A DNA stretch of 45,135 nt from a virus. The stretch's first letter is position 1; each line of letters starts with the position of its first letter. Made by a program: the position numbers and the translations under genes. Location of the stretch: IMG/VR virus record IMGVR_UViG_3300034069_000901, positions 1 through 45,135 of that record; one strand, 5' to 3'. Below the pieces are notes generated by a model that saw only the letters and a program-made list of their open reading frames with translations, was not told the origin of the DNA and ran no database searches. This document shows positions 31,938 through 42,200 of the stretch, piece after piece.

Positions 31938-32459
31938 ATGGGCATCAACGATTACGAAATCCCGGAGGTTGAGGAGCTGGAACCGTGGGCACAGGGCTTG
32001 AAGCACCCTGATATCCAATTCGTCCGCGAGTTCTTGGTCGATTTCAAGGCCATGTCGGCCGCGATCCGATGCGGGTGGAACCCGGAGACGGCCAAGTCGA
32101 GCGCGACCCGCAAGTTGCGTCGCCCTGTCATCGCCCGAGCCGTGGCCCGCGCGATGCAGGACCGGGCCGAGGCGCTCAACATCACGGCGCGCACCGTTCT
32201 TTCCGAGGCATGGCATTGCTACATGGCATGCGTGGGCGAGGCGAAATGGGAGTCGGCCCACAAGTTCTTGGAGCTGATCGGCAAGCACGTCGACGTTCGC
32301 GCGTTCCGGGATCGCGTCGGCCTGCCCCATGATGACGACGTCCCCGCGTTGAATTATGACGCCCTCTCGACCGATGAAAAACGCCAGCTCCTCGCCCTCC
32401 ACGAACGAATTGGCGCTGCACCCGCTTCGCCTAATGGAGGGGCTTCGCGCCTCAATTGA
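31938..32459 (+). CDS. terS: Terminase small subunit (Terminase_2-like)
   Basis: FVREFLVDFKAMSAAIRCGWNPETAKSSATRKLRRPVIARAV matches the Terminase_2 HTH region. It lies directly upstream of TerL. Confidence 0.8.
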   Translation: MGINDYEIPEVEELEPWAQGLKHPDIQFVREFLVDFKAMSAAIRCGWNPETAKSSATRKLRRPVIARAVARAMQDRAEALNITARTVLSEAWHCYMACVGEAKWESAHKFLELIGKHVDVRAFRDRVGLPHDDDVPALNYDALSTDEKRQLLALHERIGAAPASPNGGASRLN

Positions 32460-34080
32460 GGCCGACGAACGGGCCGCACAGCAACGCAAGGTGATGAACC
32501 GGGCGTTGCAGGCGCGGGCATCGTTCGCCGAGTTCTGCCGGACCATCGAAATCCCCGGCGCTCCGGTCGACGAGCAAGACGAGAACCTCGACGCGGCCGG
32601 CCCGGCATCCGAGAAGCCGCTCGCGGCGCACCATCAATTGTTGTGCGACAAGCTCCAGCTCGTGGAGTCCGGCGCGATTCGCCGCATGATGGTATTCATG
32701 CCGCCCGGCTCGGCCAAATCCACCTATGCCAGCGTCCTGTTCCCGGCGTGGTTCATGGGCCGGGAGCGGCGCCGCAACGTGATCGTGGCGACCTATGCAA
32801 GCCCGCTCGGCAAGAAGATCGGGCGGCGCATGCGATCCGTGATCCGGCAAGGCGCATATCGCCAGATATTCGGGATCGGATTGAGCGCGGAGTCGAGCGC
32901 GGCGGACCAATTCGCCCTCACGAACGAAAACGAAATGATGGCGGGTGGCATCCTGTCCGGCATCACGGGCAACCGTGCCGACCTGATCGTGATTGACGAC
33001 CCGATCAAGGGACGGCGTGACGCCGAAAGCGCCACGGTCCGCGAAAGCACGAGGTCCGAGTTTCGGGACAGCATCATGACGCGCGGCAAGCCCGGATTCC
33101 GCGTTCTCCTCATTCAAACCCGGTGGCACGAGGCCGACCTTGCCGGCGGCATCCTGCCCGAGGACTATGACGGCGAATCCGGTCCAATCCTGTGTCGGGA
33201 CGGGGAGACGTGGGAGGTCGTGAACCTGCCCGCCGAGGCGGAGCGCGCCGACGATCCGCTCGGCCGGCGGAAAGGCGAAATGCTGTGGCCCGAGTGGTTC
33301 CCGGCCAGCCATTGGGCGCCGTTCCGCAAGACGGCCAGGACGTGGGCCTCCCTGTTTCAGCAGCGCCCCACCCCGGCCGAGGGCGGCTTGTTCAAGCGGG
33401 CGTGGTTCACGGGCAAGATTATCGCGCCGGACAAGCTGCCCACGCGCTTCATGTCGCGGTGCCGGGCGTGGGACCTCGCCGCGACCGAGGCGACGTCGGG
33501 CGACGATCCGGATTGGACCGCCGGCATTCGCATGGCTCGGGACGGACCCGATTACTATATCGAGCATGTCGAGCGCATGCGTCGATCCGCGGCCGACGTC
33601 CGGACCGCGTTGAAGGAGAACGCCGAAACCGATCCGGTCGGTACAACGATCCGCTTGCCACAGGACCCCGGCCAAGCCGGCGTGGATCAGGCGGACAGTC
33701 TGATTAAATTCCTGGCCGGCTACGCGGTTCGGGTCGTGCGGCCCACGGGCAGCAAGGCCATTCGCGCCGAGCCCTTCGCGACGCAATGCGAGAACGGCAA
33801 CGTCTATCTCGTGCGCGGTCCATGGAACGACGCCTTTCTCGACGAGCTGTGTTCCTTCCCGAGCGCGGCCCACGACGATCAGGTCGACGCGGCGGCCGAC
33901 GCGTTCAATGAGCTGGCGCTCCGCGAGCATGTCCCGTTCTCGTCGCAAAGCGAGGGCCGCCGCGAAACCCTTACCCCCGATCGTGACAGGCGCGGCGAGT
34001 TGGACGATAAGCCGGCGGACAGCGGTCGGGGCTTCGGCTCGGTCCGCTCCCTATCGGCTGGCCAAGGGATCGCGTTCTAA
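32434..34080 (+). CDS. terL: Terminase large subunit (ATPase plus RNaseH-like nuclease)
   Basis: Walker A is MPPGSAKST, Walker B is LIVIDDP, and QTRWHEADL follows. The C-terminal nuclease motif is AAHDDQVDAAADAF. The start is uncertain: the track gives 32356, and I chose the ATG at 32434, which overlaps terS by 26 nt. Confidence 0.85.
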   Translation: MEGLRASIEADERAAQQRKVMNRALQARASFAEFCRTIEIPGAPVDEQDENLDAAGPASEKPLAAHHQLLCDKLQLVESGAIRRMMVFMPPGSAKSTYASVLFPAWFMGRERRRNVIVATYASPLGKKIGRRMRSVIRQGAYRQIFGIGLSAESSAADQFALTNENEMMAGGILSGITGNRADLIVIDDPIKGRRDAESATVRESTRSEFRDSIMTRGKPGFRVLLIQTRWHEADLAGGILPEDYDGESGPILCRDGETWEVVNLPAEAERADDPLGRRKGEMLWPEWFPASHWAPFRKTARTWASLFQQRPTPAEGGLFKRAWFTGKIIAPDKLPTRFMSRCRAWDLAATEATSGDDPDWTAGIRMARDGPDYYIEHVERMRRSAADVRTALKENAETDPVGTTIRLPQDPGQAGVDQADSLIKFLAGYAVRVVRPTGSKAIRAEPFATQCENGNVYLVRGPWNDAFLDELCSFPSAAHDDQVDAAADAFNELALREHVPFSSQSEGRRETLTPDRDRRGELDDKPADSGRGFGSVRSLSAGQGIAF

Positions 34081-36311
34081 TGCCCACCCCCACGGACTAT
34101 ATCAGGGCGGCGCAAGGCCGTATCTCAACGGCCCAAGGTCCGGCCACGCTCAACGCCTATTCGCCCAATCTGCCCGGTCCCGCGGCGCCGGACGAACAGG
34201 CGGTCGGCCCGATGCGCGAGGCCAGCCCGGAGGACGCCGCCGCCCTGCCACGCCCCGGCATGGTGACGCGCTCCGGTGACGTGACGTGGATACCTGGCCA
34301 ATGGCTCAAGACGCTGGCCGGCAACCCCGACACGATCCTCGCCAAGGACGGATCAGGGCTCAAGCTATTCGAGGCGCTTCTCGACGACGACGTCGCGTTC
34401 TCGACGCTTCAACAGCGCCGCTTGGCCATCACGTCGCGGGATTGGGAGGTCGCACCGGGTGACGATACCGACCCGCGCTCGGTCAAGGCCGCGGATCAGC
34501 TCCGCGCCATGATAAAGGCGGTGGGATGGGACCGCGTAACCGGACTCATGCACTATGGCGTATGGTTCGGCTACGCCGTCGGCGAGTGCATATGGACGAC
34601 GAAACAGCACAACGGCGAGCTGATCGTATGGCTCGACGACGTCGTTGTCCCGGATCGGCGATGGTTCGGCTTCACCCTTGAGGGTGAATTGCGGATGCTC
34701 GGGACGCTCAACGCATCGGTCAACGGCGAGGAGCTTCCGCCCAACAAGTTTTGGACGATCCGGACCGGCGGGACGCATGATTTTGCGTTCTACGGCATGG
34801 GGCTCGCGCATTGGGTCTATTGGCTCGTTTTCTTCAAGCGCGCCGCGATCAAGTTTTGGGCGCTGTACCTCGAAAAGCTCGGCATGCCGACCGTGGCAAT
34901 CGAGTTCCCCTCGGCCGAGAAGAACGACAAGCAAGCGCAGGCCGACCGTCTCCAAGCCGCGGCGGCGGTGGGCCAGGACCGGGCCGTTCTCGTGCCGGAG
35001 GGCACCCTCACGAACGACCAAATGAAGCTCCTTGAGGCGACGCGATCCGCGGCCGGGACGTCGGGCTATGCCGAGTTCATCGACGAACAGAACGAGTCGA
35101 TCATGCGCGTCGTGTTGGGCCAGCCCGGCACGTCGAAAGGCGTGTCGTCCGGCCTCAACTCGGATCAGGCCTCGGAACACGCGGGGGTCAAGGCCGAAAT
35201 CGTCAAGGCCGACTCCGACCTCATGACGGAGGCGTTCGCGCGCGGTCCGGCCAAGTGGTTGACCCGGTGGAACCATGGCCCCGACGTCGCCCCGCCGACC
35301 CTGTACCGCGTCCTCGACAATGCGGAGGACCTCAACACGATCGCGGATCGCGACGTCAAGCTCGCCGGCATTGGGATCAAGCGCACCAAGGATAGCGTGG
35401 GCGACGTCTATGGCGACGGATACGAAATCGCCCCGACCCCGCCCAAGGCCGGCAACAAGCAAATCGCGGCGGCGCTCGGCGGCGCGATCGACCCGGAAAC
35501 CGGCACGATCATCCCGGAGGCCGTACCCGCGGCGAACGACAACGCGAAGCGGGTCGCGGCCTTCGCGGCCGAGTATGGCGTCGACGACACGGCGCCGCTC
35601 TATGTGTCGCGCCAGCTCCTCAACGCGGCCGACCTGATCGCGTGGGCCAAGGGCCAGGGCTTCAAGGTGACGGTCCCGGCGGCCGATATGCACGTCACCA
35701 TCCTGTATTCGAAACAGCCGGTGGATTGGTTCGGCATGGGCCAGCCGTGGAGCGACGACGATCAGGGTCGGACCATCGTGCCGCCCGGTGGGCCGCGCGC
35801 GGTGGAGCAATTCGGCGAGGGTGCCGTCGTTCTCCGCTTCGCCTCCGCCGACCTGCAATGGCGCCATGACAGCATGGTCGAACGGGGCGCGTCCCACGAT
35901 TTCGATAGCTACTCGCCCCATGTGACGATCAGCTATGACGCGGAGGGCGTCGACCTGTCCAAGGTGGAGCCCTACCAGGGCGAGCTGCGGTTCGGACCCG
36001 AGATATTCGAGCCGATTCGGACCGGCGAGGCGTTCGACCCGGCCACGCTCAATTTCACGGCCGATCAGGAACAAGCGATCGAACGGTTGGTCAAGGCGCT
36101 CGTCGAGGACGCCAACCCCGTGTTCGCCGCCATGGCCGACGAGTTGCGGACCGGGTTGCAGGGCGTAAACAGCTTGGAAGGCGCCCGCGTCGCGATTCTT
36201 GAGGCGTGGGAGCGCATGCCGATCGACAAGCTCGCGCGCTTGACCGGCCTGCCCATGCTGGCCGAGCGCGTCGGCGCCCTGGCCGGCGCGGAGGAGGACG
36301 TCACGGCATGA
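34080..36311 (+). CDS. Portal protein, Mu gp29 / DUF935-like, with an inserted 2H-phosphoesterase-like domain
   Basis: TAATG overlap with terL. 743 aa. The DUF935-like core includes LKLFEALLDDDVAFSTLQQRRLAI and FWALYLEKLGMPTV. The typical C-terminal tail is ADQEQAIERLV...LARLTGLPMLAERVGA. An extra segment of about 145 aa carries two HVTI motifs. Confidence 0.9.
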   Translation: MPTPTDYIRAAQGRISTAQGPATLNAYSPNLPGPAAPDEQAVGPMREASPEDAAALPRPGMVTRSGDVTWIPGQWLKTLAGNPDTILAKDGSGLKLFEALLDDDVAFSTLQQRRLAITSRDWEVAPGDDTDPRSVKAADQLRAMIKAVGWDRVTGLMHYGVWFGYAVGECIWTTKQHNGELIVWLDDVVVPDRRWFGFTLEGELRMLGTLNASVNGEELPPNKFWTIRTGGTHDFAFYGMGLAHWVYWLVFFKRAAIKFWALYLEKLGMPTVAIEFPSAEKNDKQAQADRLQAAAAVGQDRAVLVPEGTLTNDQMKLLEATRSAAGTSGYAEFIDEQNESIMRVVLGQPGTSKGVSSGLNSDQASEHAGVKAEIVKADSDLMTEAFARGPAKWLTRWNHGPDVAPPTLYRVLDNAEDLNTIADRDVKLAGIGIKRTKDSVGDVYGDGYEIAPTPPKAGNKQIAAALGGAIDPETGTIIPEAVPAANDNAKRVAAFAAEYGVDDTAPLYVSRQLLNAADLIAWAKGQGFKVTVPAADMHVTILYSKQPVDWFGMGQPWSDDDQGRTIVPPGGPRAVEQFGEGAVVLRFASADLQWRHDSMVERGASHDFDSYSPHVTISYDAEGVDLSKVEPYQGELRFGPEIFEPIRTGEAFDPATLNFTADQEQAIERLVKALVEDANPVFAAMADELRTGLQGVNSLEGARVAILEAWERMPIDKLARLTGLPMLAERVGALAGAEEDVTA
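35590..36020 (+). other. 2H-phosphoesterase-like domain embedded in the portal ORF
   Basis: MHVTILYS (His codon 35691-35693) and PHVTISYD (His codon 35919-35921) lie 76 residues apart. Each follows a hydrophobic strand (PLYVSRQL; AVVLRFAS). Confidence 0.6.
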
Positions 36312-36658: not shown

Positions 36659-36690
36659 ACGCCCGCCGATGGAAGTTGGCGGGCGTTTTC
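36659..36690 (+). terminator. Rho-independent terminator
   Basis: ACGCCCGCC (36659-36667) pairs with GGCGGGCGT (36678-36686): a 9-bp stem with a 10-nt loop, then TTTTC. A second hairpin lies at 36628-36650. Confidence 0.6.
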
Positions 36691-37102
36691 ATGCCTGCTA
36701 TAGATTGCGAATGGCAGGACGAAACAGCAAGCCCGAACCCTGGTACGAACAAGGCCCTTGCGTGGTTTGCCAAGAAAGACTGCAAACCCGCCGCGGCATT
36801 CGCGATGGTCGCCCGGTTTATCAATCCATATGTGGACGATGTAATCGGCTTCGGCACCCCGCACCGGAAAGCCAAGTGCGATCTTGGAAAGAGCGGCCAC
36901 ATCGGAGAGCATTGAAAGAGGCTTGCGAACGGTGCGCCTTTGTACCCGAGGATAAGTGCCAACTTGATATAGACCACCGGGACGGTAATCGGCACAATAA
37001 CGAACCGGCGAATTTGCAGACGCTATGCGCTAACTGCCATCGCCTGAAAACCAAACTCGCTGGTGACAACAAGACTCGTTATTGAGCGCGGCGGGCGTTT
37101 TC
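36678..37102 (+). mobile_element. Candidate HNH homing-endonuclease cassette bounded by 13-bp direct repeats
   Basis: GGCGGGCGTTTTC occurs at 36678-36690 (the 3' arm and U-tract of the terminator) and again at 37090-37102 without a 5' arm. The AT-richer HNH ORF lies exactly between the two copies. Confidence 0.35.
36711..37085 (+). CDS. HNH endonuclease
   Basis: ATG at 36711. Cys pairs (CVVCQ, CGRCN) are followed by DIDHRDGNRHNNEPANLQTLCANCHRLKT, the HNH motif. Confidence 0.8.
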   Translation: MAGRNSKPEPWYEQGPCVVCQERLQTRRGIRDGRPVYQSICGRCNRLRHPAPESQVRSWKERPHRRALKEACERCAFVPEDKCQLDIDHRDGNRHNNEPANLQTLCANCHRLKTKLAGDNKTRY

Positions 37103-37370
37103 GTTTCGGGCATTGCATACGCGTTGCAGCGATGGCATGAGGGCGGCGGGGCGAACCTCTTGCGGTCCTATTCACGCAAGCCCTTGAAGGTTCCGGGTGA
37201 TGCCGGCCGACGCTTGAAACGGACCCGGAGCCATCCAGCCGGCAATGGGATGGGGGAACGCCTACCTAGGCGTGACAGCCGGAGAGGACGGAAGCCGAGC
37301 GGGATGGTGGGCGGTAGGCGGCCCGACGCGGACTCTCTCCGTAGCCATCCCGACCAACAGGGAGTCAGTC

Positions 37371-37787
37371 ATGATCCATTGTCGCACCGTCCTTGCCCTC
37401 GCCGCCGCCGTCGCGCTCGTGGGTTGCGCCACCAGCTCGGCCCCGCCCGCCAGCGCCGGCAGCATGGCCGCCACCGCGCCCACCACCACCACGCCCGCGC
37501 TGGCCAAGGCCGGACAGGTCGTCGTCAAGGCGAGCGAAGCCTTGAAGCTGGCCGACGCCGCGTATCAGGCCGCGGTGCCGATCGCCGAGGGGCTGATTTC
37601 GGCCGGCATCATTTCGCCCGGCGAAGCGATCATGGTTCGCGATATCGAGTCGCGCGCGTCACAGGCGCTCGCCACGGCCCACGCCGCGCTATCCGTCGCC
37701 GAGCAGGCGCAGGCGGTGGCGCAGGCCGTCACGGCCATCAACACCTTGACGACGATCGCGCCCGCGGCCACAACCATCAATCATTGA
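37371..37787 (+). CDS. Lipoprotein (138 aa)
   Basis: ATG at 37371 after GGGAG. The signal peptide with lipobox is MIHCRTVLALAAAVALVGC. The mature part is Ala-rich and helical. Confidence 0.7.
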   Translation: MIHCRTVLALAAAVALVGCATSSAPPASAGSMAATAPTTTTPALAKAGQVVVKASEALKLADAAYQAAVPIAEGLISAGIISPGEAIMVRDIESRASQALATAHAALSVAEQAQAVAQAVTAINTLTTIAPAATTINH

Positions 37788-38220
37788 ATCCCGTAGCGAA
37801 AGCCAAGGGTTGATCCGCCGAGCCATAGAGGTGCGAAGCGGGGACCGAAGCGAGTAGGGAGCGGGGAGGTTGGCGGTTCCTCCCATGCTCCGGCTGTCCG
37901 CTAGACTACCGGGAGGGCGCGCGGACGCGGCGAGCCCCGTAGAACGGAATGGCCGCAAGGCCCGACCTCCCGACCAAGTTTAGGGCCGCCCGCCTCACTT
38001 GAAGGGGTCTATCCCCCGGAGAGAGATAGGGGCAACGGTTGGGATGGCCCAAGGGCGGGTGGCGAGGCGGTGGACCGACCGCGCACCACCCGCCCAACCC
38101 TGGAGTACCCGCCAAATCCGACGCGATCGTCGGGACAGGATATGCGGGGAACGTCGCTCGGCTAGGGCAACAGGCGCGGCTCCGCTGGAAACGGCGGGGC
38201 CGTTCGCGTATCTGGCCCCT
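37788..38220 (+). ncRNA. ORF-free, helix-rich region: candidate structured RNA, class unknown
   Basis: No credible ORF in six frames. Hairpins: 37864-37884; GGCC-GCAA-GGCC at 37951-37962; a 10-bp plus 5-bp nested stem at 38053-38095; 38118-38133; and a 10-bp stem with a GAAA loop at 38178-38201. Long-range pairs are 37910-37916 with 37966-37972 and 37817-37823 with 38156-38162. Confidence 0.35.
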
Positions 38221-39087
38221 ATGTGCCGACGCCCGATCCTGTTCGACGCCGCTGATCGTCCGCCGCGCCAGCTCCTCCCGCTACAGGTCGGCGCGAAGGA
38301 TATCGAGGAATGGCTCCTCGCTAAGAGTCCGACCGCAATCGGCGCGTACAACACGATCGGCGCGGAGGAATATGCCCGGTCGTTCACCGCGGCCCAAACC
38401 GCCGGCACAGATATTGCCGACGACCTATATTTCGGGATCGTGGACGTCGTCGGCCGAGGTGGCACGGAACAAGACTTCTCGCGCCTTGTCACGCCGATCC
38501 TCAAGTCCAAGGGATGGCTCGGGGGCGACGATCGCGCCATCGCGACACGGGTGGCCCTGATCTATGACACAAACCTCCGCTTGGCCCGCGCCGCGGGACG
38601 GTGGAACAGGTATCAGGCCAGCAAGAGCGGATTGCCCTACGTTCGCGGCGTCACGGCCGAGGACGAACGGGTCCGCCACCCGCCCAAGAGCCCGTTGAGC
38701 GACCATCGCGCGTTCGACGGGATCATTCTGCCCCTCGACCATCCGTTCGTGGCCAAATACTGGACCCCGCTCGGCTTCCGGTGCCGGTGCCAATGGATAC
38801 AGATGACGCGGTCGCAGCTCGCGCGCTATCCCGGCGGGATCACGTCCGAAGCGGACCTCGCCGAGCGCGAGAAGCGACTAGGGCCACCCGTGTTCGCCTC
38901 GCCCGCCGCCCCGATCAAGTCGCAGCTCGCCAGCATGGTCGACGCGACCAACGCGGAGCGCATGCCCGGCATGCCGGCGGTGGACCCCGTCGCGGCGGAA
39001 CAGGCCGGCACGTCGGCATGGCTCAACGTGATCGGCGCCGAAATCGGATCAAGCGTCGGCGAGGCGCTCGCGCGCTTGTTTGGCTGA
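38221..39087 (+). CDS. Head morphogenesis protein, Mu gp30 (MuF) / SPP1 gp7-like
   Basis: ATG at 38221, in frame with track ORF 37999..39087. ARSFTAAQTAGTDIADDL, IYDTNLRLARAAGRW and VRHPPKSPLSDHRAFDGIILPLDHPFVAKYWTPLGFRCRCQ are the MuF signature. Confidence 0.85.
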   Translation: MCRRPILFDAADRPPRQLLPLQVGAKDIEEWLLAKSPTAIGAYNTIGAEEYARSFTAAQTAGTDIADDLYFGIVDVVGRGGTEQDFSRLVTPILKSKGWLGGDDRAIATRVALIYDTNLRLARAAGRWNRYQASKSGLPYVRGVTAEDERVRHPPKSPLSDHRAFDGIILPLDHPFVAKYWTPLGFRCRCQWIQMTRSQLARYPGGITSEADLAEREKRLGPPVFASPAAPIKSQLASMVDATNAERMPGMPAVDPVAAEQAGTSAWLNVIGAEIGSSVGEALARLFG

Positions 39088-42005: not shown

Positions 42006-42083
42006 AGATGCTCCGTTGCTTCGCATATCTGCTAAGCGCCTTCGCGGTATTGTGCAAGCGCCATTTCGCGAGTATGCGAAATC
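42006..42083. promoter_or_regulatory. Divergent intergenic region with a repeated TATGCGAA motif
   Basis: TTCGCATA (42020-42027, inverted copy) and TATGCGAA (42073-42080) lie here, with a third copy at 42185-42192. A candidate promoter is TTGTGC (42050-42055), 17-nt spacer, TATGCG (42073-42078). Confidence 0.3.
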
Positions 42084-42200
42084 ATGACCGACGAGGAACG
42101 CCAGCGGCTCGCCGAGCTTGACCGGATTATAGAGGCTTCGCGAGAGGCGAGGAAAGAGCGTCGTGCGCTTCTAGCCCGCGTCCGTATGCGAAAAACGTGA
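42084..42200 (+). CDS. Small basic ORF (38 aa)
   Basis: Not in the track. ATG at 42084; its TGA overlaps the next GTG (GTGA). It encodes MTDEERQRLAELDRIIEASREARKERRALLARVRMRKT. Confidence 0.35.
   Translation: MTDEERQRLAELDRIIEASREARKERRALLARVRMRKT

What the first reader, a model, noticed from the sequence alone, without database searches (positions are those of the whole stretch)
37788..38220. 433-nt ORF-free, helix-rich element with GNRA-capped hairpins directly upstream of the MuF gene
Genes elsewhere in this genome abut or overlap, yet this stretch has no credible ORF in any frame. All six translations are Arg/Gly/Pro-rich and do not look like protein.

It is dense in stable helices:
- GGGAGG/CCTCCC at 37864-37884.
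- GGCC-GCAA-GGCC (GNRA loop) at 37951-37962.
- A 10-bp stem GGGCGGGTGG/CCACCCGCCC enclosing a 5-bp stem, at 38053-38095.
- A stem at 38118-38133.
- A 10-bp stem capped by GAAA at 38178-38201.

CGGGAGG (37910-37916) can pair with CCTCCCG (37966-37972), enclosing the GCAA hairpin. GCCGAGC (37817-37823) can pair with GCUCGGC (38156-38162), closing the whole domain. The segment 38054-38063 can alternatively pair with GCCGCCCGCC (37985-37994), a mutually exclusive structure reminiscent of a switch. No Shine-Dalgarno sequence precedes the MuF ATG at 38221.

Short strings (GCCGAGCCA, UAGACUACCGG) loosely recall group I intron cores, but I could not build a P1-P9 model. The class is unknown. It could be a regulatory leader, a ribozyme, an sRNA, or a decayed gene.
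Basis: partly seen in the sequence, partly recalled or inferred. Interest (0 to 1): 0.62.

Follow-up and report, generated by a model that had tools for sequence, protein, structure and literature searches.

The report
Mosaic non-coding spacer before MuF
The 433-base gap before the phage's MuF head gene really is non-coding, but it is a patchwork of short modules shared with related phages, not one large RNA; two modules are conserved RNA hairpin structures, a new ~115-nt two-hairpin motif and a terminator-like hairpin with a start signal for MuF.

Summary
The window is a complete 45-kb phage genome with Mu-type head genes; its nearest MuF relatives are in sphingomonad genomes. It is not one helix-rich domain. 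The whole stretch folds only marginally better than shuffles (z -1.7), and its 5' 195 nt do not (z -0.6).

Comparison with about 25 related phages splits it into modules that occur in different orders and combinations:
- **D (37788-37872):** conserved in sequence in three relatives, with no consensus structure.
- **37873-37982:** unique to this phage, with no support for function.
- **B (37983-38100):** a two-hairpin RNA found in only four contigs. It folds well (z -3.5), 12 of 30 pairs carry compensatory changes, G·U pairs favour the + strand, and it has no Rfam match.
- **A (38173-38223):** a 10-13-bp hairpin abutting an invariant TTCGCGTATCT box, exactly 7 nt before the first ATG of the MuF module. 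There are 17 copies in 14 relatives plus the window.

The proposed closing helix, the switch and the group I intron reading are not supported. My best reading is a cargo-slot spacer that ends in a terminator and an SD-less, possibly leaderless, start signal, and that carries a new small structured RNA of unknown function. No transcript data could be obtained.

The parts
37368..37787 (+). Upstream cargo gene: a predicted lipoprotein (signal peptide MIHCRTVLALAAAVALVG|C). It is absent from all relatives.
   Evidence: Translation, strong GC3 periodicity, no tblastn match in relatives.
37788..37872 (+). Module D: a sequence-conserved non-coding block (ATCCCG.AGCGAAA .. TTGATCCGCCGA .. GAGAGG .. 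CGGGGA .. GAGTAGG) with no consensus structure.
   Evidence: nhmmer finds it only in L002 3212-3290, L026 3421-3503 (directly after B there) and L004 3626-3708 (just before A there), with E 1e-13 to 5e-15. RNAalifold finds only 5 pairs.
37873..37982 (+). Unique segment holding the tail of the GGGAGG/CCTCCC hairpin (37864-37884, which starts in module D) and the CGGGAGG..GGCC-GCAA-GGCC..CCTCCCG structure. No homologue was found and its folding is not better than shuffles.
   Evidence: blastn against about 25 related loci, the phage collection and the plasmid collection found nothing. MFE z is -0.59 for 37788-37982.
37983..38100 (+). Module B: a two-hairpin structured RNA motif. Hairpin 1 is a long irregular helix (37983-37996 pairs with 38029-38051) with an invariant 7-nt bulge A(A/G)CGGUU and a variable apical hairpin. 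Hairpin 2 is 38053-38095, with an inner 5-bp stem and an invariant GGACCG loop.
   Evidence: Homologues are L026 3292-3435, L022 3608-3742 and metagenome contig L050 2311-2460(-). MFE z is -3.48. Of 30 consensus pairs, 95% of cells pair, 12 pairs carry two-sided changes, 0 of 500 shuffles reach this, and slid controls give 1-2.
38101..38172 (+). Linker containing the palindromic hairpin CCGACGCGATCGTCGG (38118-38133). It is not conserved: L022 has 3 nt here and L026 has about 540 nt.
38173..38202 (+). Module A hairpin: GGCUCCGCUG-GAAA-CGGCGGGGCC, a GC-rich stem with two U·G pairs and a GNRA loop. It looks like an intrinsic terminator.
   Evidence: 16 of 17 copies in relatives have a 10-13-bp hairpin ending 0-1 nt before the box, with at least 9 different stem sequences and z from -2.6 to -4.9.
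38203..38223 (+). Module A box TTCGCGTATCT, a 7-nt C-rich spacer, then ATG (the MuF start, 38221).
   Evidence: The core TTCGCGTAT is identical in 14 of the 17 aligned copies (G->A in L003; L002's first copy reads TTCGCTAT; the full box TTCGCGTATC is in 13). ATG lies exactly 7 nt after the box in 14 of 17. The ATG opens MuF or a small gene placed before MuF. The box is single-copy in 4 of 5 complete relatives.
38221..39087 (+). MuF-like head morphogenesis gene.
   Evidence: Pfam Phage_Mu_F, E 7.5e-08. Orthologues are 54-69% identical in relatives.

Best explanation
The stretch is the 3' part of a hypervariable cargo slot between the portal gene and MuF. It is a patchwork of short non-coding modules exchanged among related phages, not one RNA.

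**Module A (inferred mechanism).** The hairpin forms in RNA and acts as an intrinsic terminator that closes the cargo slot. This would insulate the late head genes from transcription of the cargo genes (here the HNH endonuclease and the lipoprotein). The invariant box directly after it is the start signal of the MuF module. Most likely it is a -10-like element: TATCTG sits at -12 to -7 if transcription starts at the A of the ATG. That would give a leaderless MuF mRNA, which would explain both the fixed 7-nt spacing and the missing Shine-Dalgarno sequence.

**Module B.** It is an independent, compact two-hairpin RNA transcribed in the gene direction, either as a small RNA or as a UTR element of the cargo transcript. 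Its invariant bulge (CGGUU) and invariant loop (GACCG) could pair with each other. Its function is unknown.

**Module D and 37873-37982.** These have no demonstrable structure. They are probably recombination debris or DNA-level sequence.

**Shown:** the stretch is non-coding; the modules are distributed separately; B and the A hairpin covary; the box and its spacing are invariant. **Inferred:** termination, promoter and leaderless start, and any function of B.
For: **Non-coding:**

**Cargo slot**
- The portal-to-MuF distance varies from about 410 to about 2700 nt among relatives.
- The contents differ: tRNA-Met in L003 and L004, a sub-threshold suhB/mmgR-like sRNA in L004, other lipoproteins or exported proteins in L022 and L018, and HNH only in the window.

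**Modules occur separately and in different orders:**

**Module A**
- Hairpin with many different stems, then an invariant box, then a fixed 7 nt to ATG.
- U·G pairs in the stem and GNRA loops indicate an RNA hairpin on the + strand (sequences).
- It resembles the genome's clearest terminator at 717-750, a GC stem followed by UUUUCG.
- The box is not coding. Three copies have no in-frame start codon upstream, and the rare codon TAT and the codon GCG are kept in nearly every copy, which argues for constraint on the bases rather than on the peptide.
- Leaderless and non-SD mRNAs are common in alphaproteobacteria: 375 leaderless mRNAs and only 24.6% SD-led starts in Caulobacter (PMC4117421).

**Module B:**. 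It is always co-oriented with the flanking genes.
Against: - Termination, the transcription start site and the expression of B are therefore untested.
- The U-tract of A in the window is weak (G-UUCGCGUAUCU), and the simple terminator scan did not call it.
- No consistent -35 element accompanies the box.
- B rests on only four sequences, so the covariation statistics have low power.
- No partner protein co-occurs with B.
- In three samples of 151 genomes (sphingomonad order and family, and alphaproteobacterial class; about 450 in all) only one weak match was found, E 0.003, inside an ORF and taken as chance; no positive control was available.
Confidence: 0.55

Rival explanations
1. The 433 nt form one large structured RNA, such as a ribozyme, a group I-like intron, a riboswitch or a long regulatory leader, closed by long-range helices and able to switch.
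For: - There are many local helices.
- The whole-region MFE is slightly below shuffles, z -1.72.
- An HNH endonuclease gene lies 700 nt upstream.
Against: - No Rfam match, even at E<=10.
- The parts occur independently in relatives. In L022, B lies 45 nt after a gene and 3 nt before A. In L026, D follows B.
- The closing helix is not in the MFE or centroid structure.
- The switch pairing is explained by base composition.
- MuF and the upstream gene are both intact, so no gene is interrupted.
- The 5' 195 nt fold no better than shuffles.
Confidence: 0.04
2. The stretch, or at least D and 37873-37982, is the decayed remnant of one or more former cargo genes.
For: - The slot holds different genes in different relatives, so gene loss is expected.
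- D is conserved in sequence but not in structure.
Against: - No frame has any Pfam or PHROG similarity.
- No relative carries an intact ORF over D, B or A.
- D lies in non-coding DNA in all four phages.
- B and A show RNA-type covariation.
Confidence: 0.12
3. The conserved inverted repeats of A and B act as DNA sites: an operator or activator site for a phage regulator such as the Mor-like protein, or a recombination or boundary site for cargo exchange.
For: - The box is invariant at the DNA level and mostly single-copy.
- TTCGCR-N0-2-TAT occurs 7 times in the window against 1.75 expected, with three copies clustered in the divergent intergenic region at 42020-42075.
- L002 and L015 carry duplicated A copies flanking inserts.
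- In L050, B sits 15 nt after a P4-type integrase gene.
Against: - The stems differ in sequence between relatives while pairing is kept, and they use G·U pairs that would be A·C on the other strand. That is the signature of RNA, not of a protein-binding site.
- The wider box motif is not enriched in five related genomes.
Confidence: 0.15
4. Module A is coding: MuF, or the first gene of the module, starts upstream and has a conserved N-terminal peptide ..GPFAYL..M.
For: The MuF frame is open through A in all 14 copies examined, and it reads a similar peptide.
Against: - Three copies (L004, L015, L032) have no ATG, GTG or TTG in the open stretch, and the window has none within 54 codons.
- GC3 is flat upstream of 38221.
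- In a 68% GC genome open frames of 15-30 codons are expected by chance.
- The third codon positions of TTC-GCG-TAT are almost invariant, although the neighbouring coding DNA is only about 70-75% identical.
Confidence: 0.04

Closest known systems
Phage 'moron' or cargo cassette with its own terminator (Hendrix/Juhala concept; from my own knowledge), and the Tn916 T1 insulator terminator (PMC11658703)
   Same: Accessory genes (lipoprotein, HNH) are inserted between two conserved late genes. A GC-rich hairpin sits at the downstream border, where it could stop transcription from running into essential genes.
   Different: Here the hairpin belongs to the conserved MuF side of the junction, not to the individual cargo. 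It is fused to an invariant 11-nt box at a fixed distance from the start codon. Termination has not been measured.
Leaderless mRNAs of alphaproteobacteria (Caulobacter crescentus, Sinorhizobium meliloti; PMC4117421, PMC3616915)
   Same: There is no Shine-Dalgarno sequence. A TAT-containing hexamer ends 6 nt before the A of the ATG, which is the geometry of a -10 element for a transcript that starts at the start codon.
   Different: No transcription start site has been mapped for this phage. No -35 element is conserved. The box is longer and more invariant than a usual -10 element.
HK022 put RNA and other processive antiterminator RNAs (EAR, canT; King et al. 1996 as cited in PMC11658703)
   Same: B is a compact two-stem-loop RNA, its two hairpins separated by 2 nt, and it lies upstream of a terminator-like hairpin in a mobile element.
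   Different: No sequence or structural homology was tested. B is absent from most relatives that keep the terminator-like hairpin. Its distance to A varies from 3 to about 540 nt. No activity data exist. This is an analogy only.
Alphaproteobacterial sRNA suhB/mmgR (Rfam RF00519) and phage-borne tRNA genes
   Same: Relatives carry a sub-threshold suhB/mmgR-like match (33.4 bits against a threshold of 41; L004 2784-2860) and tRNA-Met genes in the same portal-MuF slot. The slot therefore commonly holds small RNA genes.
   Different: The window has no tRNA and no Rfam match of any kind. B does not resemble these RNAs.

Membership tests
Group I intron | Match to the conserved P3-P9 core (Rfam RF00028 Intron_gpI) | tested here: not met
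   No match at the gathering threshold on the window, and none at E<=10 on 37600-38400.
Group I intron | Interrupts a host gene whose exons rejoin into an intact reading frame | tested here: not met
   The lipoprotein gene ends with a stop at 37787. MuF starts at 38221 with a complete N-terminus that aligns to relatives.
Known riboswitch, ribozyme or other Rfam family | Covariance-model match | tested here: not met
   (L026 homologue) returned only noise hits, and none recurs between homologues.
Intrinsic (Rho-independent) terminator (module A hairpin) | Stable GC-rich RNA hairpin | tested here: met
   Stems of 10-13 bp at -20 to -27 kcal/mol in 16 of 17 copies, with compensatory variation.
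Intrinsic (Rho-independent) terminator (module A hairpin) | U-rich tract directly after the stem | tested here: inconclusive
   The tail is (G/U)UUCGCGUAUCU, with 5 U in 11 nt. The consensus scan did not call it. The genome's clearest terminator has UUUUCGUUG.
Intrinsic (Rho-independent) terminator (module A hairpin) | Transcripts end at the site | not testable with these tools
Leaderless mRNA start | [quoted passage not shown] | not testable with these tools
   Only the geometry is available: TATCTN, then 6 nt, then ATG in 14 of 17 copies.
Leaderless mRNA start | No Shine-Dalgarno sequence upstream | tested here: met
   The 7-nt spacers are C-rich (GGCCCCT, AGGCCCC, CCTCCCC and others) and none contains GGAG.
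HK022 put-type antiterminator RNA | Two adjacent stem-loops in the nascent transcript upstream of terminators | tested here: met
   Consensus structure of B, with the A hairpin downstream in the three phage copies.
HK022 put-type antiterminator RNA | Promotes read-through of downstream terminators by acting on RNA polymerase | not testable with these tools
B is absent from most relatives that carry A.
Pseudogene remnant | Homologues carry an intact ORF at the same place, or a frame keeps protein similarity | tested here: not met
   D, B and A are non-coding in every relative examined.

The most novel reading that the evidence does not exclude
Module B is a new class of phage- and mobile-element-borne structured RNA. 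It has a bulge-loop tertiary contact and acts either in cis on RNA polymerase, like put RNA, letting cargo-slot transcripts pass the hairpin of module A, or in trans as a decoy or regulator of a host factor. Together, A and B would then form an RNA-only terminator/antiterminator switch at the entry to the head-gene operon.
Probability: 0.12. Interest if true: 0.7.

Novelty: new member of a known kind. Interest (0 to 1): 0.4.

Why it matters
- It shows that a long 'empty' gap in a tightly packed phage genome is a recombination patchwork rather than a single ribozyme-like RNA. This corrects an attractive but wrong reading.
- It yields two concrete, testable elements. The first is an invariant hairpin-plus-box signal that marks the start of the MuF head-gene module across a clade of sphingomonad-type phages; it is a candidate terminator/leaderless-promoter junction and a fixed border for cargo exchange. 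The second is a small covariation-supported RNA motif with no Rfam family.
- If the box proves to be a leaderless promoter, it would give a handle on late-gene control in phages with Mu-type heads that lack Mu's known late promoters.
- If B has an activity, it would add a new phage RNA family.

Tried and rejected
- **Rfam:** gathering threshold on the window and on 24 related loci; E<=10 on the region and on the L026 and L004 spacers. Only tRNAs and one sub-threshold suhB match, all in relatives.
- **tRNA/tmRNA scan of the window:** none.
- **blastn against public collections:** no match for the region in the phage collection or the plasmid collection.
- **Exact and degenerate pattern scans for B:** IMG/VR and JGI metagenomes gave only L022, L026 and L050 as true members. 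Other hits were chance, apart from L039, which has a possible partial hairpin 1 only (16 bits) and folds no better than shuffles (z +0.57). The scan did not return L022's contig although its sequence fits the pattern, so scans with variable gaps can miss sites.
- **Covariance model R1 against three samples of 151 genomes (about 450 in all: sphingomonad order and family, alphaproteobacterial class):** one weak hit (L054, 28.6 bits) lies inside a 462-aa ORF and was rejected. Only about 19 candidates per genome were scored and there was no positive control.
- **Partner protein for B:** none is shared by B-bearing contigs and missing from B-lacking relatives.
- **Box as a general late-promoter motif:** it is not enriched in five related genomes. 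The extra copy in L015's genome lies in coding DNA.
- **Sigma-54 and EcfG-type promoter spacings around A:** considered by eye and rejected because the spacing is wrong.
- **Genome-contig search with MuF:** only distant (36-38%) prophage relatives in Sphingomonas, Allosphingosinicella and Sandaracinobacter MAGs, all without B.

Full report
**Setting.** The window is a complete IMG/VR virus record of 45,135 bp with direct terminal repeats. It has Mu-type head genes:
- Large terminase, 32356-34080.
- Portal fused to an Acb1 domain, 34080-36311.
- MuF, 38221-39087.

The nearest MuF relatives in cellular genomes are prophages in Sphingomonas, Allosphingosinicella and Sandaracinobacter MAGs. The 1.9 kb between portal and MuF holds these features:
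- A 98-aa ORF.
- An HNH endonuclease gene in a lower-GC segment, 36669-37085.
- A 282-nt non-coding stretch.
- A lipoprotein gene, about 37368-37787.
- The 433-nt stretch under study.

The stretch is non-coding:
- GC content at the three codon positions is flat (0.6-0.8) across 37788-38220. The lipoprotein gene and MuF show third-position GC of 0.8-0.95.
- None of the stop-to-stop frames of at least 30 codons has Pfam or PHROG similarity.
- ATG 38221 is the true MuF start. MuF N-termini align from there, and in L002 and L004 an unrelated small gene ends exactly where MuF begins.

'Helix-rich' is only partly more than chance:

| Segment | MFE z-score | Shuffles folding as well |
|---|---|---|
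| Whole stretch, + strand | -1.72 | 4 of 100 |
| Whole stretch, - strand | -2.39 | 1 of 100 |
| 37788-37982 | -0.59 | 56 of 200 |
| 37983-38100 | -3.48 | 0 of 200 |

For 37983-38100 one structure makes up 36% of the ensemble.

**Comparison with relatives.**
- MuF-anchored searches of IMG/VR gave about 25 related loci with MuF 54-69% identical.
- The portal-MuF distance ranges from about 410 to about 2700 nt, and the contents differ. L003 and L004 carry tRNA-Met. L004 has a sub-threshold suhB/mmgR-like sRNA. L022 has a different lipoprotein and L018 an exported protein. L002, L004 and L005 have an extra small gene just before MuF. None has the window's HNH, 98-aa ORF or lipoprotein.
- This is therefore a cargo slot.
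- blastn and nhmmer of the window's spacer against these loci found three short conserved non-coding blocks inside the 433 nt, each with its own distribution.

**Module A (38173-38223).**
- Seventeen copies in 14 relatives plus the window share one design: a 10-13-bp GC-rich hairpin ending 0-1 nt before the box TTCGCGTATCT.
- In 14 of 17 copies an ATG follows exactly 7 nt after the box.
- At least nine different stem sequences keep the pairing. Loops are often GNRA (GAAA, GCAA). The stems contain U·G pairs that would be A·C on the other strand. The hairpin is therefore selected as RNA on the + strand.
- The core TTCGCGTAT is identical in 14 of 17 copies (G->A in L003; L002's first copy reads TTCGCTAT), although the neighbouring coding DNA is only about 70-75% identical. 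It is single-copy in four of five complete related genomes.
- The ATG after it opens MuF or, where present, the small gene inserted before MuF. The signal therefore belongs to the start of the module, not to the MuF protein.
- I checked whether A could be coding. The frame is open and reads ..GPFAYL..M.. in all copies. However, three copies have no in-frame start codon, the window has none within 54 codons, and the third positions of TTC-GCG-TAT are almost invariant. The constraint is on the nucleotides.
- The hairpin and tail resemble the clearest terminator of this genome (717-750: GC stem then UUUUCGUUG), which is followed by a gene with a normal GAAGGA Shine-Dalgarno sequence.
- If the A of the ATG is +1, TATCTG occupies -12 to -7. 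That is the geometry of a -10 element for a leaderless mRNA.
- Leaderless and non-SD starts are frequent in alphaproteobacteria: 375 leaderless mRNAs and 24.6% SD-led starts in Caulobacter (PMC4117421). The missing SD is therefore not odd in itself.
- Termination and the start site are inferred, not shown.

**Module B (37983-38100).**
- Homologues exist in L026, L022 and one metagenome contig, L050. A covariance model scores them at 115-137 bits and finds nothing else in about 450 kb of related loci.
- RNAalifold gives two hairpins separated by 2 nt.
  - Hairpin 1 is a long irregular helix in which 37983-37996 pairs with 38029-38051. It has an invariant 7-nt bulge A(A/G)CGGUU and a variable apical hairpin.
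  - Hairpin 2 has a variable outer stem, a 5-bp inner stem and an invariant GGACCG loop.
- Pair counts:

| Measure | Result |
|---|---|
| Cells paired | 95% |
| Pairs with changes on both sides | 12 of 30 (shuffles 4.6 ± 1.6) |
| Shuffles reaching the observed value | 0 of 500 |
| Slid controls | 1-2 |

- Fourteen G·U cells, including one G·U pair invariant in all four sequences, favour the + strand.
- The invariant bulge (CGGUU) and loop (GACCG) are complementary and could form a tertiary contact. Because both are invariant, this cannot be tested by covariation.
- B always points the same way as its neighbours:
  - 195 nt after a lipoprotein gene in the window.
  - 45 nt after another lipoprotein gene in L022.
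  - About 90 nt after a small conserved gene in L026.
  - 15 nt after a P4-type integrase gene in L050.
- Its distance to A is 73 nt in the window, 3 nt in L022 and about 540 nt in L026.
- No Rfam family matches it.
- No protein co-occurs with it.
- It was not found in three samples of 151 genomes (sphingomonad order and family, alphaproteobacterial class; about 450 in all). That search had limited sensitivity and no positive control.
- With four members the family is real but thin.

**Module D (37788-37872).** It is conserved in sequence with L002, L004 and L026 (E 1e-13 to 5e-15). It lies after B in L026 and just before A in L004. It has no consensus structure.

**Segment 37873-37982.** It has no homologue anywhere I could search, and its folding is not distinguishable from shuffles.

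- The closing helix 37817-23/38156-62 is not in the MFE or centroid structure. One arm lies in D and the other in the non-conserved linker.
- The 'switch' pairing of 38054-63 with 37985-94 is possible in all four B sequences. It is no stronger than shuffles of the same composition in three of them. Covariation instead supports pairing of 37983-37996 within hairpin 1.
- Group I likeness has no support.

**Conclusion.**
- The stretch is a real non-coding region containing two conserved RNA structures.
- It is a mosaic at a cargo-exchange hot spot, not a single RNA machine.
- My best reading (confidence about 0.55): A is a terminator that closes the cargo slot, fused to an SD-less and probably leaderless start signal for the MuF module. 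B is a small structured RNA or UTR element of unknown function carried as cargo. D and the unique segment are sequence debris or DNA-level sites.
- The most novel reading still open is that B is a put-like antiterminator or a trans-acting RNA, which would make A and B an RNA-only control point. I give that about 0.12.

Noticed in passing
window 37121-37301 (also L018 2887-3062): A second non-coding block, between the HNH gene and the lipoprotein gene, is 75% identical over 182 nt to a block in relative L018. In both phages it lies directly upstream of an exported or lipoprotein gene. It may be a shared promoter or 5' leader of a secreted-protein cargo cassette. It has no Rfam match.
   Followed up: partly
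window 42020-42075: Three tandem copies of TTCGC(G/A)-N0-2-TAT, spaced 21 and 24 nt apart, lie in the divergent intergenic region before the small ORF at 42085. The last copy ends 5 nt before that ATG, which also has no SD. The motif occurs 7 times in the genome against 1.75 ± 1.3 expected. It is not enriched in five relatives.
   Followed up: partly
window 36669-37085: A free-standing HNH endonuclease gene (Pfam HNH, E 1.8e-05) sits in a lower-GC segment (0.56-0.58 against about 0.68) inside the cargo slot. It is absent from all relatives.
   Followed up: partly
L003 3729-3803; L004 3251-3327 and 2784-2860: Relatives carry a tRNA-Met gene in the portal-MuF slot. L004 also has a sub-threshold suhB/mmgR-like sRNA match there (33.4 bits against a threshold of 41, E 9e-5). 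L003 3860-3905 contains a T-arm-like GGTTCGATTCC fragment that ARAGORN does not call.
   Followed up: partly
L002 3586-3803; L004 3795-4031; L005 about 2160-2398: Three relatives have a small gene of about 70-80 aa inserted between module A and MuF, overlapping the MuF start (ATGA/GTGA). The L004 and L005 products share a ..DxxGxxxxGWSxPP.. motif. Its function is unknown.
   Followed up: no
L018 3887-5551; L006 3929-5458: In two relatives the MuF reading frame continues into a C-terminal extension of about 220-270 aa, giving 554 and 509 aa in total. This recalls MuF proteins that carry C-terminal cargo or toxin domains. I did not examine it.
   Followed up: no
L050 (metagenome contig Ga0325400_1001891) 14-844, 2488-3726, 4141-6015: The only B copy outside the MuF phages lies between two integrase-like genes, next to C5 and N6 DNA methyltransferase genes. 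It is followed by about 330 nt of further non-coding DNA.
   Followed up: partly
L022 3575-3607: Just upstream of B in L022 there is a TTGACG hexamer, then 17 nt containing GTTCGCGCA, then TAACGA. This could be a sigma-70-type promoter that would place B at the 5' end of its own transcript. No equivalent was seen upstream of B in the window, L026 or L050.
   Followed up: no
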